Positions 18,432 through 19,028 of a stretch of DNA of 64,000 nucleotides are shown piece by piece. This DNA comes from Escherichia coli. GTDB taxonomy: Bacteria > Pseudomonadota > Gammaproteobacteria > Enterobacterales > Enterobacteriaceae. Position numbers and translations under genes: made by a program. Location of the stretch: NCBI RefSeq assembly GCF_045037415.1, contig NZ_CP173438.1, one strand, 5' to 3'. The notes below the pieces were generated by a model. It did not search any database. It had not been told where the DNA came from and was given only the letters and a program-made list of their open reading frames with translations. Position 1 is the stretch's first letter. The number at the start of each line of letters is the position of its first letter.

Positions 18432-18569
18432 TTAGAAGCGGTAACCTGCAGAGAACATAAATACCCACGGGTCAAGGCGTACGTTGTCAGAATAACGCCC
18501 TGCAGGCAGCACTGCGCCGTTGGATTTATATTTCACTTCGGTATCGATATCCATGTACCAGACCGACAT
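18432..18569 (-). pseudogene. ompW: ompW 3-prime terminal fragment (about 45 codons) at chromosome/prophage junction
   Basis: Minus-strand translation MSVWYMDIDT...RLDPWVFMFSAGYRF-stop matches recalled OmpW C-terminus; nothing OmpW-like upstream; phage-type AT-rich DNA starts at about 18561. Confidence 0.6.
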
Positions 18570-18756
18570 GTTTTAAAAAATGCAATAAGACATTGTATCT
18601 GAAAGAAAAAACAGGATTTGAGGCGCTTTTTTATACCGTTTTTCCGTGTTTTTAACTGCCTGATTTTATTGAAATCTTTTTTAGTTTTGCAGAAAGGATT
18701 TTTTGCTCGATCGCTTTAATTTTATACATTCCTGATAACGGAAATTTTTTTGCCCG

Positions 18757-18786
18757 TTGACAGTTTTTGTTCTCCGGGGCTATATT
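18757..18786 (+). promoter_or_regulatory. near-consensus sigma-70 promoter upstream of rha
   Basis: TTGACA (18757-18762), 18-nt spacer, TATATT (18781-18786); short hairpins (AACCGcaaaatCGGTT; CCGCgtttGCGG plus T8) downstream. Confidence 0.45.
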
Positions 18787-19028
18787 CCTCACACAACCGC
18801 AAAATCGGTTGTCGGGATTGGCGTCTCGGATAACATCACAACGCATAGCCGCGTTTGCGGTTTTTTTTGCGTTAAGCATTGCCACATTCGCATTATGGTG
18901 GGGCGTGCAGGGGCGGAGAAATCCGCGCCGGGTTTTGTGATGACCGGTTACGCCAACCCTGTACGTCTCACCACCTCCCTGATTGGCGTCAGAGGTGGTG
19001 ATCATCCAATTAATTGGAGTCATCACAT

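What the first reader, a model, noticed from the sequence alone, without database searches (positions are those of the whole stretch)
18561..19028. Structured leader with near-consensus promoter upstream of rha at the prophage end
A near-consensus sigma-70 promoter (TTGACA-18-TATATT) is followed by about 240 nt of untranslated leader containing two short hairpins, one followed by a T8 run, before the rha start. This looks like an attenuator or small-RNA-generating leader rather than a simple 5-prime UTR.
Basis: seen in the sequence. Interest (0 to 1): 0.3.

Follow-up and report, generated by a model that had tools for sequence, protein, structure and literature searches.

The report
Antisense-RNA switch guarding a prophage antirepressor
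The "structured leader" in front of rha is a real but already well-described phage immunity cassette (a promoter, the small RNA IsrK and the C4 antisense RNA, which masks the ribosome-binding site of an antirepressor gene), and genome annotation currently mislabels it as a protein.

Summary
A TTGACA-18-TATATT promoter (18757-18786) is followed by about 236 nt of leader with a hairpin and a hairpin+T8 terminator, then the rha ATG at 19029. The leader is a known element, not a new one. Rfam places IsrK at 18793-18867 (72 bits, cut-off 50) and the C4 antisense RNA at 18891-18978 (76 bits, cut-off 45). Phage P1 immI, satellite P4 immunity and Salmonella Gifsy-1 isrK-orf45-anrP have the same layout: promoter, a1/b1 target copy ending in a terminator, C4, then a2/b2 over the start region of an antirepressor gene. 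In 16 related phage loci C4 keeps its fold (10 compensated pairs). Its two recognition elements co-vary with both target copies (16 and 9 different specificities). In the window b2 lies between the Shine-Dalgarno sequence and the AUG of rha. Most likely mechanism: most transcripts stop as IsrK; read-through RNA yields C4; C4 blocks rha translation; IsrK, carrying the same sites, competes with it. The RefSeq "ash family protein" CDS (Pfam PF10554) over this region appears to be a translation of these RNA genes. This is a new member of a known kind, of low interest.

The parts
18757..18786 (+). Sigma-70 promoter of the module (-35 TTGACA 18757-18762, 18-nt spacer, -10 TATATT 18781-18786). The predicted start is A18793.
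   Evidence: 11/12 match. Hexamers, spacing and the CCGGGGCTATATTCC block are identical to Gifsy-1 PisrK. PisrK is needed for transcription in lacZ fusions: 280 vs 3 Miller units (PMC4825925).
18793..18868 (+). IsrK-type small RNA, equivalent to the a1/b1 target copy of the C4 system (P4 seqA). It has hairpin 1 (18793-18812), hairpin 2 (18813-18828), a single-stranded linker and a terminator.
   Evidence: Rfam RF01394 isrK: 72.2 bits (cut-off 50), E 1.7e-13. RF03163 c4-a1b1: 43.8 bits at 18780-18832, just below its cut-off of 46.7. Hairpin 1 has 5 of 7 pairs with compensatory changes in 17 loci.
18818..18824 (+). Site a1 (UUGGCGU), in the loop of IsrK hairpin 2. It is complementary to a' of C4.
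   Evidence: Across 17 loci, all 7 pairs are formed in every locus, and 6 of 7 pairs show changes on both sides (helix 3). The Gifsy-1 compensatory mutants G28A/C162U and G31A/C159U fall on these pairs (PMC4825925; numbering checked).
18834..18842 (+). Site b1 (CAUCACAAC), in the IsrK linker just upstream of the terminator. It is complementary to the b' loop of C4.
   Evidence: Cognate vs non-cognate duplex energy is -11.3 vs -4.6 kcal/mol, MWU p 3.5e-11, and the cognate target ranks first in 14 of 17 loci (where this site was labelled 'a1').
18847..18868 (+). Intrinsic terminator of IsrK (stem-loop 18847-18862, T8 at 18861-18868). It is the read-through point for the long transcript.
   Evidence: A hairpin plus T-run sits at this position in all 16 homologs and in Gifsy-1, P1 and P4. 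Read-through is shown for Gifsy-1 (PMC4825925).
18891..18978 (+). C4 antisense RNA gene (P4 CI RNA / Salmonella STnc1160 equivalent). By homology to the annotated P1 c4 ends, the mature RNA is predicted at about 18897-18975.
   Evidence: Rfam RF01695: 75.9 bits (cut-off 45), E 4.9e-13. MFE -47.4 kcal/mol, z -5.2. 27 consensus pairs, 10 with compensatory changes, none broken in 17 loci. P1 c4 ends come from the P1 record.
18935..18944 (+). b' recognition element (UUGUGAUGAC) in the apical loop of C4 hairpin 2.
   Evidence: There are 16 different loop sequences in 17 loci, each matching its own b1 and b2.
18950..18956 (+). a' recognition element (ACGCCAA), the single-stranded 3' segment inside the C4 three-way junction.
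   Evidence: There are 9 different a' sequences in 17 loci, each the reverse complement of its own a1 and a2.
18968..19001 (+). Hairpin that presents site a2 (UUGGCGU, 18983-18989) in its loop. Its 5' arm (CACCACCUC) is also the 3' arm of the C4 outer stem, so the two folds exclude each other.
   Evidence: third fold. a':a2 is 95% paired, with 5 pairs compensated; the misses are a MAFFT register slip in two loci. The same hairpin occurs in P1, P4 and Gifsy-1.
19016..19027 (+). rha translation-initiation region: Shine-Dalgarno GGAG (19016-19019) and site b2 (GUCAUCACA, 19019-19027), which ends 1 nt before the AUG.
   Evidence: coordinates. Cognate vs non-cognate energy is -11.0 vs -6.2 kcal/mol, p 4.5e-9 (labelled 'a2' there). 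In homologs the site always lies between -23 and +3 of the start codon. In the full-leader MFE the SD and b2 are also sequestered in cis.
18895..19032 (+). 45-codon upstream ORF (orf45 equivalent). Its AUG lies in the 5' arm of the C4 stem, and its UGA overlaps the rha AUG (AUGA).
   Evidence: Gifsy-1 orf45 has the same start (A107), length (45 codons) and AUGA overlap (PMC4825925). The peptide sequence and frame are not conserved in homologs.
19029..19586 (+). rha: a 185-aa Rha-domain protein, the regulated cargo and a putative antirepressor.
   Evidence: Pfam PF09669 95.3 bits. TIGR02681 81 bits. PHROGs 995/518/373/2379, annotated transcriptional regulator or anti-repressor. The C-terminal 64 aa are 32% identical to the Gifsy-1 AnrP C-terminus, E 3e-6.
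19596..19628 (+). Terminator-like hairpin after rha (8-bp stem, then AATTTTATCG), the probable 3' end of the unit.

Best explanation
The region 18757-19586 is a P1-immI / P4 / Gifsy-1-IsrK-type RNA immunity cassette that keeps a prophage antirepressor gene (rha) silent. Site names follow the P1 record. Proposed steps: (1) A strong constitutive promoter starts transcription at about 18793. (2) Most transcripts stop at the hairpin+T8 and become the ~76-nt sRNA IsrK, which carries sites a1 and b1. (3) Some transcripts read through and contain C4, sites a2 and b2, and rha. (4) C4 (about 18897-18975) is cut out of the read-through RNA, by RNase P at its 5' end as in P1. (5) Its exposed elements a' and b' pair with a2 (in a hairpin loop just downstream) and with b2 (between the Shine-Dalgarno sequence and the AUG of rha), blocking ribosome entry. 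The leader also hides this region in a cis hairpin. (6) IsrK carries the same two sites and so competes for C4, in trans or in cis within the unprocessed transcript. When IsrK is in excess, the rha start region and the 45-codon upstream ORF are freed, and rha is translated, possibly by coupling through the AUGA overlap. (7) Rha then acts as an antirepressor or regulator that pushes a prophage towards lytic gene expression. Shown here: family membership, the conserved fold, the covariation of a' and b' with both target copies, the position of b2 at the start codon, and the cargo domain. Taken from the literature on homologs: terminator read-through, RNase P processing, translational repression, and activation by IsrK. 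Inferred for this locus: steps 2-7.
For: Rfam hits above curated cut-offs: isrK 72.2 bits (cut-off 50) and C4 75.9 bits (cut-off 45). All 16 related phage loci fetched have the isrK+C4 tandem, isrK above its cut-off in 15 of them (46.2 bits in L014). So does Gifsy-1 itself. P1 and P4 have the same tandem, but the P1 IsrK-like part scores 35 bits, below the cut-off. The C4 fold has 27 pairs, 10 compensated and none broken. Over the whole structure 98.9% of cells are paired, 21 pairs are compensated, and 0 of 500 shuffles reach this; sliding the partners drops pairing to about 40%. a1:a' is fully paired, with 6 of 7 pairs compensated. a2:a' is 95% paired, with 5 pairs compensated. For b' against b1 and b2, cognate duplexes are 5-7 kcal/mol better than non-cognate, p 1e-8 to 1e-11, and the cognate ranks first in almost every locus, with 16 different b' loops (a/b labels there are the reverse of P1's). 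b2 always lies from -23 to +3 of the start codon. The P1 record annotates the same a1, b1, c4, a2, b2 order and 'repression of icd ant translation', and PMC8546580 states that c4 RNA represses Ant synthesis. C4 is an RNase P substrate (PMC11143913). For Gifsy-1 (PMC4825925): PisrK drives anrP transcription; the long RNA is untranslated; IsrK in trans raises translation 139-fold; and the compensatory mutants G28A/C162U and G31A/C159U map exactly onto a1:a'. The downstream genes in homologs are all antirepressor-type (Rha, ORF6N, Bro-N, P22_AR_C). The window elements are intact, and the region is 100% identical in about 396 complete E. coli genomes.
Against: There are no expression data for this locus. 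Taken alone, the window's 7-9-nt complementarities are not significantly better than shuffled targets (p 0.01-0.2), so the case rests on comparison. The Gifsy-1 authors interpret IsrK as opening an mRNA structure around orf45, not as titrating a trans-acting C4. They also report that co-expressing the STnc1160 region made IsrK toxicity stronger, not weaker, which does not fit a simple decoy model. At equilibrium the isolated window IsrK prefers a fold without the terminator (-24.0 vs -19.4 kcal/mol, P(terminator) 0.01), unlike 16 of 20 homologs, so termination efficiency here is uncertain. The module sits at the far end of the prophage among gene fragments, not in the usual early/nin region, so it could be a leftover. 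That Rha is an antirepressor is inferred from family annotation and a 64-aa similarity only.
Confidence: 0.8

Rival explanations
1. Gifsy-1 model taken literally. The C4-like segment acts only as part of the mRNA, as a structure that hides the upstream ORF's ribosome-binding site. Short IsrK is a trans-activator that opens it, the 45-codon ORF is translated, and rha is translated by coupling. No free C4 repressor is involved.
For: There is direct experimental support in the closest homolog: activation by IsrK (139-fold), dependence on orf45 translation, and 30S binding (PMC4825925). The window has the same 45-codon ORF with the AUGA overlap. 14 of 18 loci keep this frame open to within 40 nt of the cargo start codon, or past it.
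Against: The b' loop co-varies with a site at the cargo start region in all 17 loci compared, including the Gifsy-1-like locus L014; Gifsy-1 itself was checked by eye. This model does not need or explain that covariation. The ORF stops after 8-15 codons in 4 loci, and its frame and peptide are not conserved. A stable processed RNA (STnc1160) exists in Salmonella, and the homologous P1 C4 acts in trans. The two models can both be true.
Confidence: 0.3
2. P4-type action. C4 pairing with a1/b1 and a2/b2 on the nascent RNA mainly causes premature transcription termination, at the IsrK terminator or by Rho downstream, rather than a translation block.
For: The P4 CI RNA and its seqA region match the same Rfam C4 and isrK models, and the downstream seqC sites were matched by eye. 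P4 immunity works by termination (summary in PMC4825925). b1 ends 4 nt before the terminator stem. In P1 the translation block of icd is said to be needed for ant expression (P1 record).
Against: b2 lies exactly on the SD-AUG spacer, which is the signature of translational control. No Rho-dependent signal was tested. Termination and translation block are coupled in P1 and P4, so this is more a refinement than an alternative.
Confidence: 0.2
3. The leader is a protein-coding gene, as in RefSeq: 'ash family protein' WP_001296031.1, window 18757-19032, Pfam PF10554.
For: A 91-codon ORF is open, and Pfam PF10554 scores 53.8 bits. Its last 45 codons correspond to orf45, which is translated in Gifsy-1 when IsrK is over-expressed (PMC4825925).
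Against: Its TTG start is the TTG of the -35 hexamer, upstream of the transcription start. The ORF coincides with two Rfam RNA genes. In 16 homologs the frame is broken or shifted: ORF lengths run from 8 to 260 codons, two different frames are read over the same conserved nucleotides, and element lengths differ by non-multiples of 3. Substitutions show no third-position excess in this segment (10/11/7) while the adjacent Rha gene does (28/22/67). PF10554 also matches the old P4 'cI' ORF exactly over the CI RNA gene (59.7 bits); the real P4 epsilon protein belongs to another family, PF25738.
Confidence: 0.04
4. An inactive relic: a fragment of an older prophage left at the ompW junction and no longer regulating anything.
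For: The module lies beyond the tail-fibre genes among truncated tfa, DUF4376 and invertase fragments. In most phages the module is in the early/nin region. The predicted IsrK terminator is thermodynamically disfavoured here.
Against: Every component is intact and scores like the functional homologs: an 11/12 promoter, IsrK and C4 above cut-off, a1/a2/b1/b2 all still complementary, and a full-length rha with its own terminator. No frameshift or stop is present.
Confidence: 0.1
5. An ordinary 5' UTR with chance hairpins, or a metabolite/leader-peptide attenuator.
For: Promoter-like and terminator-like matches are individually common (3 found vs 4.3 expected; 7 vs 3.3).
Against: There are two curated RNA-family hits with E around 1e-13, and covariation in 17 loci. 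No ORF lies between the start and the terminator, and there is no riboswitch hit.
Confidence: 0.01

Closest known systems
Salmonella Gifsy-1 isrK-orf45-anrP-isrJ locus (Hershko-Shalev et al. 2016, PMC4825925)
   Same: It has the same promoter (TTGACA-18-TATATT, identical -10 block), IsrK 73% identical and C4/STnc1160 77% identical. The a' specificity is the same (ACGCCAA/UUGGCGU). The 45-codon upstream ORF starts at the same AUG in the C4 stem and ends in the same AUGA overlap with the cargo gene. The cargo C-terminal domain is homologous.
   Different: The cargo N-terminal domain is Rha here and ORF6N in AnrP. The b' specificity differs (GUGAUGA vs CGGUGAUC). No isrJ follows the gene. The module lies at the prophage end next to attachment-site DNA, not beside the Q antiterminator gene. 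The IsrK terminator is predicted to be less favoured.
Phage P1/P7 immI operon: c4 antisense RNA, icd, ant1/ant2 (Citron & Schuster 1990, 1992; P1 record NC_005856)
   Same: The order of elements is the same: promoter, a1, b1, hairpin+T-run, c4, a2 in a hairpin loop, b2 over the Shine-Dalgarno sequence, then an antirepressor operon. The C4 fold is the same (P1 68.8 bits, window 75.9 bits). The ATGGTGGGG 5' end and CCACC 3' end are conserved.
   Different: P1 has icd between b2 and ant, and the promoters are controlled by the C1 operator Oc4; neither was found here. C4 identity is 69%. The P1 a1/b1 region scores only 35 bits on the isrK model. The cargo differs (Ant1/2 vs Rha).
Satellite phage P4 immunity: seqA, CI RNA (seqB), seqC
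   Same: The P4 CI RNA hits the C4 model (74.9 bits) and the seqA region hits the isrK model (60.8 bits). The two-part complementarity is the same: GUGAGAA and UUCACAGG upstream and downstream, the latter over AGGAGG.
   Different: P4 has an extra spacer of about 100 nt before CI. The described outcome is premature transcription termination that protects replication genes. C4 identity is 58%.
Phage P22 immI: sar antisense RNA controlling ant
   Same: It has the same logic: a small antisense RNA blocks translation of an antirepressor gene (own knowledge).
   Different: sar is a true cis-antisense transcript from the opposite strand, with no C4-like fold. No homology is expected and none was tested.

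Membership tests
C4 antisense RNA (Rfam RF01695; P1/P7 c4, P4 CI) | Sequence-plus-structure match to the curated covariance model above its gathering score | tested here: met
   75.9 bits vs 45, full length 1-87, E 4.9e-13.
C4 antisense RNA (Rfam RF01695; P1/P7 c4, P4 CI) | Long closing stem enclosing two hairpins, with an unpaired 3' segment, kept by compensatory changes | tested here: met
   The MFE equals the consensus fold, z -5.2. 27 pairs, 10 compensated, none broken in 17 loci.
C4 antisense RNA (Rfam RF01695; P1/P7 c4, P4 CI) | Two exposed elements (a', b') complementary to two target copies, one upstream (a1 b1) and one over the start region of the downstream gene (a2 b2) | tested here: met
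   Window sites are given. Covariation with both copies is shown. The same sites are annotated in the P1 record.
C4 antisense RNA (Rfam RF01695; P1/P7 c4, P4 CI) | Excised from a longer transcript by RNase P; acts in trans as a repressor | not testable with these tools
   Known for P1/P7 (PMC11143913; PMC8546580). Here there is only conservation of the AUG|GUGGGG 5' end and the CCACC 3' end.
IsrK sRNA (Rfam RF01394) / c4-a1b1 motif (RF03163) | Match to the curated models above gathering score | tested here: met
   isrK 72.2 vs 50: met. c4-a1b1 43.8 vs 46.7: just below, although the two models overlap on the same hairpins.
IsrK sRNA (Rfam RF01394) / c4-a1b1 motif (RF03163) | Own promoter, two 5' hairpins, intrinsic terminator; short form plus read-through form | tested here: inconclusive
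   The promoter, hairpins and hairpin+T8 are present. The equilibrium fold of the isolated RNA disfavours the terminator. The two RNA forms cannot be observed with these tools.
IsrK sRNA (Rfam RF01394) / c4-a1b1 motif (RF03163) | Hfq binding | not testable with these tools
   This is in the Rfam family description only.
Gifsy-1-type isrK-orf45-anrP operon | Upstream ORF starting in the C4 5' arm and ending in overlap with the antirepressor start codon | tested here: met
   18895-19032, 45 codons, AUGA overlap, identical in layout to Gifsy-1.
Gifsy-1-type isrK-orf45-anrP operon | Cargo activates a neighbouring Q-like antiterminator (AntQ); isrJ downstream | tested here: not met
   There is no isrJ hit in the window. 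The Q-like gene is about 35 kb away at the other side of the prophage. Any functional link is untested.
Rha family (Pfam PF09669 / TIGR02681) | Rha N-terminal domain above the curated cut-off | tested here: met
   95.3 bits vs 29.9; 81.3 vs 45.95.
Phage antirepressor (functional class) | Binds and inactivates a phage repressor | not testable with these tools
   There are only PHROG annotations, the C-terminal similarity to AnrP, and the fact that all homologous cassettes carry antirepressor-type domains.
Ash protein family (Pfam PF10554), as annotated in RefSeq | A conserved translated protein | tested here: not met
   The HMM score is met (53.8 bits). However, the start codon lies in the -35 box, the frame is not conserved, there is no codon-position bias, and the family matches the P4 CI RNA gene translation.

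The most novel reading that the evidence does not exclude
IsrK may be a dedicated target mimic of C4, not just the 5' end of the operon. Because a1/b1 co-vary with a'/b' as tightly as the real target a2/b2 does, the cassette would be a three-RNA switch: repressor C4, its mRNA target, and a co-transcribed decoy whose amount is set by terminator efficiency. It would have a two-key specificity code (at least 9 x 16 combinations seen) that keeps co-resident prophages insulated. In addition, the predicted RNase P cut (AU|G at 18896/18897) falls inside the start codon of the 45-codon upstream ORF. Each read-through transcript could then either be processed into repressor or be translated towards rha, but not both. 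This would reconcile the P1 'repressor' view and the Gifsy-1 'activator' view.
Probability: 0.35. Interest if true: 0.4.

Novelty: new member of a known kind. Interest (0 to 1): 0.2.

Why it matters
For biology, it matters little beyond this locus. It adds one more instance, with a Rha-type cargo at an unusual end-of-prophage position, to a 35-year-old class of phage immunity RNA. The sequence is identical in about 396 complete E. coli genomes, so the cassette may influence whether a common prophage, or a co-resident one, is induced. For annotation, it matters more. RefSeq shows no RNA gene here and instead names a CDS 'ash family protein'. Some phage records extend 'Rha' or 'antirepressor' proteins by 100-200 residues across these RNAs. 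Published comparative work treats the 'Ash domain' (PF10554) as a protein domain of unknown function, or as P4 epsilon. The evidence here indicates that this 'domain' is a translated RNA gene.

Tried and rejected
(1) My first reading paired the IsrK hairpin-1 loop CAAAAUC with C4 GGUUUUG in the window. I rejected it because the loop is conserved while C4 loops vary, so there is no covariation.

(2) A naive longest-complementary-run score gave poor separation of cognate from non-cognate pairs. I replaced it with windowed duplex energies and column-wise pair counts.

(4) My working labels a and b were the reverse of P1's. I corrected them after reading the P1 record.

(5) The weak Rfam hits at 18300-19300 (STnc430, AaHKsRNA41, snoRNAs; E 0.5-9) were dismissed as chance.

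(6) I considered and rejected a leader-peptide or riboswitch attenuator: there is no ORF and no family hit between the start and the terminator.

(7) The long 'Rha/Ash' fusion ORFs in ST64B/1720a-02/PhiR63-type phages were tested for coding signal and rejected for the RNA segment.

(8) The original P1 papers (PMC312442, PMC41593, PMC196329) are not held. P1 facts therefore come from the GenBank record, two later papers and my own knowledge.

(9) A literature search for Rha proteins as proven antirepressors gave nothing usable.

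Full report
CONTEXT. The window carries trpEDCBA (to 18381), the trpA terminator and a 3' fragment of ompW on the minus strand (18432-18569). From about 18570 a lambdoid prophage runs to beyond the window end. The finding lies at the very first gene unit inside that prophage and is transcribed inward. Downstream are fragments of tail-fibre-assembly genes, a SAM methyltransferase, a truncated invertase, the invertible tail-fibre segment, and then the tail, head, lysis and Q regions.

1. The scan finds TTGACA-18-TATATT at 18757-18786 (11/12) and a terminator-like hairpin at 18847-18862 followed by T8 (18861-18868). A first hairpin lies at 18793-18812. The rha ORF starts at ATG 19029 (185 aa), so the leader is 236 nt. 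Promoter-like matches are not rare in this region (3 found, 4.3 expected), so the match alone proves nothing. What supports it is identity with the active PisrK promoter of Gifsy-1: the same hexamers, the same 18-nt spacer and the same CCGGGGCTATATTCC block. The interval 18561-18756 contains no part of the element.

2. WHAT IT IS. Rfam finds two curated RNA families in tandem on the plus strand. IsrK is at 18793-18867 (72.2 bits, cut-off 50). The C4 antisense RNA is at 18891-18978 (75.9 bits, cut-off 45). The overlapping 'a1,b1 target' motif scores 43.8 bits against a cut-off of 46.7. C4 folds into its family structure as the MFE (-47.4 kcal/mol, z -5.2). The downstream protein has a Rha domain and matches PHROGs annotated as regulator or anti-repressor.

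3. RELATED LOCI. The 1-kb region is 100% identical in about 396 complete E. coli genomes and is present in 789 of 5,426. A module 72-84% identical occurs in 273 phage records, mostly Stx phages, where it lies between ninE and ant/roi. All 16 loci I fetched have isrK and C4 in tandem about 24 nt apart. I then checked the three experimentally studied systems.
- Gifsy-1 has IsrK (79 bits) and a C4 (69 bits) between IsrK and anrP.
- P1 has C4 (69 bits), the a1b1 motif (51 bits) and an IsrK-like region with a hairpin and T-run (35 bits).
- P4 has C4, its CI RNA (75 bits), and IsrK, its seqA region (61 bits).
All share one layout: promoter, hairpin 1, hairpin 2 with site a1 in its loop, linker with site b1, terminator, C4 with b' in an apical loop and a' in a 3' single strand, a hairpin presenting a2, then b2 over the ribosome-binding region of the first gene. 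I use the P1 record's names. In some searches my working labels a and b were swapped.

4. COMPARATIVE TEST OF THE STRUCTURE AND THE PAIRINGS. RNAalifold on 17 C4 sequences gives 27 pairs, 10 of them with compensatory changes and none broken. Counting a structure that I specified on the 224-column alignment gives 98.9% of cells paired and 21 pairs with changes on both sides. None of 500 shuffles reaches this, and pairing drops to about 40% when partners are slid by 1-3 columns.

The intermolecular-type helix a1:a' is formed in every sequence, with 6 of 7 pairs compensated. The a2:a' helix is 95% paired with 5 pairs compensated; the misses are a MAFFT register slip in two loci. For the length-variable b sites I compared duplex energies of each C4 loop with every locus's IsrK linker and start region. 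Cognate pairs average -11.3 and -11.0 kcal/mol against -4.6 and -6.2 for non-cognate (p 3.5e-11 and 4.5e-9), and the cognate target ranks first in most loci. There are 16 different b' loops and 9 different a' segments among the 17 loci. b2 always lies between -23 and +3 of the start codon.

In the window the sites are:
- a' ACGCCAA, 18950-56
- a1 and a2 UUGGCGU, 18818-24 and 18983-89
- b' UUGUGAUGAC, 18935-44
- b1 CAUCACAAC, 18834-42
- b2 GUCAUCACA, 19019-27, immediately after the SD GGAG (19016-19) and 1 nt before the AUG
Taken alone, these short matches are not significant against shuffled targets. The evidence is the covariation.

5. LINK TO EXPERIMENTS. In Gifsy-1, PisrK drives transcription into anrP but the long RNA is not translated. 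IsrK supplied in trans raises translation 139-fold, and orf45 translation is needed. The mutations G28A and G31A in IsrK are compensated by C162U and C159U. Numbering the Gifsy-1 sequence from its start puts G28 and G31 in a1 (UUGGCGU) and C159 and C162 in a' (ACGCCAA), so the published helix b-I is the a1:a' pairing. A107, the first orf45 AUG, is the conserved AUG in the C4 5' arm. The orf45 has 45 codons and its UGA overlaps the anrP AUG. The window has the same arrangement (18895-19032, AUGA). A stable RNA, STnc1160, is processed from the Gifsy-1 read-through transcript and is abundant in lysogens; it coincides with the C4 hit. In P1 the record states that a2 and b2 serve 'repression of icd ant translation'. 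c4 RNA represses Ant synthesis, and C4 is an RNase P substrate.

6. MECHANISM PROPOSED. The promoter fires constitutively, and most RNA ends as IsrK. Read-through RNA contains C4, which is excised. By homology to the P1 ends this is 18897-18975, with the cut falling within the AUG of the upstream ORF. C4 pairs through a' and b' with a2 and b2 and closes the rha start region. In the full-leader MFE the SD and b2 are also buried in a cis hairpin. IsrK carries the same two sites and competes for C4, in cis in the unprocessed RNA or in trans, which would explain why it behaves as an activator in Gifsy-1. Rha is then made, possibly by coupling to the upstream ORF.

I regard family membership and the pairing scheme as established (about 0.9). 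The direction of control, C4 as repressor and IsrK as its antagonist, is likely (about 0.6-0.7). The antirepressor activity of Rha is plausible but untested. One published result fits a simple decoy model poorly: co-expression of the STnc1160 region enhanced IsrK toxicity.

7. THE CARGO VARIES. Downstream genes in the homologs carry Rha, ORF6N (with or without P22_AR_C) or Bro-N domains, or are small unknown proteins. The window Rha shares only its C-terminal 64 residues with AnrP (32% identity, E 3e-6). The RNA cassette is therefore a portable controller for antirepressor-type genes.

8. RIVAL: A PROTEIN GENE. RefSeq annotates 18757-19032 as 'ash family protein', and Pfam PF10554 scores 53.8 bits. 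The evidence against a real protein is as follows.
- The TTG start codon is the TTG of the -35 box.
- The ORF is co-extensive with the two RNA genes.
- In homologs the ORF from the conserved AUG has 8 to 260 codons, two different frames are read over the same conserved nucleotides, and element lengths vary by non-multiples of three.
- In phages where the frame runs on into Rha (annotated as 380-aa 'Rha' proteins), substitutions in the RNA segment are spread 10/11/7 over codon positions, against 28/22/67 in Rha proper.
- PF10554 also matches the obsolete P4 'cI' ORF precisely over the CI RNA gene (59.7 bits), whereas P4 epsilon is PF25738.
The 45-codon ORF may still be translated as a coupling device, as in Gifsy-1, and 14 of 18 loci keep that frame open to within 40 nt of the cargo start or past it. 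However, its peptide is not conserved.

9. ODDITIES SPECIFIC TO THIS LOCUS. First, the module sits at the prophage end next to the attachment site rather than in the early region. Second, the isolated IsrK sequence is predicted to prefer a fold in which AACCGCAAA (the 5' arm and loop of hairpin 1) pairs with UUUGCGGUU (the loop and 3' arm of the terminator). This fold scores -24.0 against -19.4 kcal/mol for the canonical fold, with terminator probability 0.01, whereas 16 of 20 homologs keep the terminator at P >= 0.66. Co-transcriptional folding may still favour the terminator. If it does not, read-through, and hence C4 and rha mRNA, would be higher here.

10. VERDICT. This is a real feature, correctly spotted and only partly interpreted. 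It is a new member of a well-known kind (P1 immI, P4 immunity, Gifsy-1 IsrK). Interest is low (0.2). The most useful by-product is the annotation point about the 'Ash' family.

Noticed in passing
window 18757-19032 (+); also L021 (P4) 8168-8584 (-): RefSeq names this ORF 'ash family protein' (WP_001296031.1), and Pfam PF10554 matches it. The ORF coincides with the IsrK and C4 RNA genes, starts in the -35 box, is not frame-conserved, and shows no codon-position bias. PF10554 also matches the obsolete P4 'cI' ORF laid over the CI RNA gene, while P4 epsilon is PF25738. The 'Ash domain' looks like a translated RNA gene. Two papers use it as a protein marker.
   Followed up: yes
L015 532-1683, L016 497-1654, L012 832-1695 (phages PhiR63_1, ST64B sb41, 1720a-02): These annotated 'Rha'/'antirepressor' proteins of about 290-385 aa run through the promoter, IsrK and C4 before reaching the conserved Rha start codon. 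Codon-position counts support coding only downstream of that ATG. The stretch upstream of IsrK has its substitution excess at position 2, suggesting a gene in another frame.
   Followed up: partly
window 18793-18869: The window's IsrK is predicted to favour a fold pairing its 5' end (AACCGCAAA) with the terminator's 3' half (UUUGCGGUU). This removes the terminator hairpin at equilibrium (P 0.01), unlike most homologs. It may be a lineage-specific increase in read-through.
   Followed up: partly
window 19978-20095 and 21027-21144: A 118-nt direct repeat (89% identical), made of tail-fibre-assembly gene 3' ends, brackets a class I SAM-dependent methyltransferase gene (20324-20992, PHROG 2132, function unknown). 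The gene therefore looks like an inserted cassette. A truncated invertase (21191-21397, minus strand) lies just beyond it, so the tail-fibre inversion switch is probably frozen.
   Followed up: partly
window about 26860-29170: By coordinate transfer from the identical RefSeq genome, an IS21-family element (ISEc12, istA/istB) interrupts the prophage lom (Ail/Lom) gene.
   Followed up: no
window 56637-56713 and 56814-56889 (-): Two prophage tRNA genes lie downstream of the Q antiterminator region. ARAGORN calls the second tRNA-Met (CAT), but RefSeq calls it tRNA-Ile, as expected for an ileX-type lysidine tRNA.
   Followed up: no
window 55751-55940 (-) and 61412-61587 (-): There are two further curated RNA hits in the prophage: STnc100 (132 bits) near the anti-adapter iraM-like gene, and sok (120 bits), the antitoxin of the hokD toxin gene.
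   Followed up: no
window 18432-18569 (-): ompW is reduced to its last 45 codons by the prophage insertion. Strains with this prophage would therefore lack OmpW unless an intact copy is recreated at the other junction, which lies outside the window.
   Followed up: no
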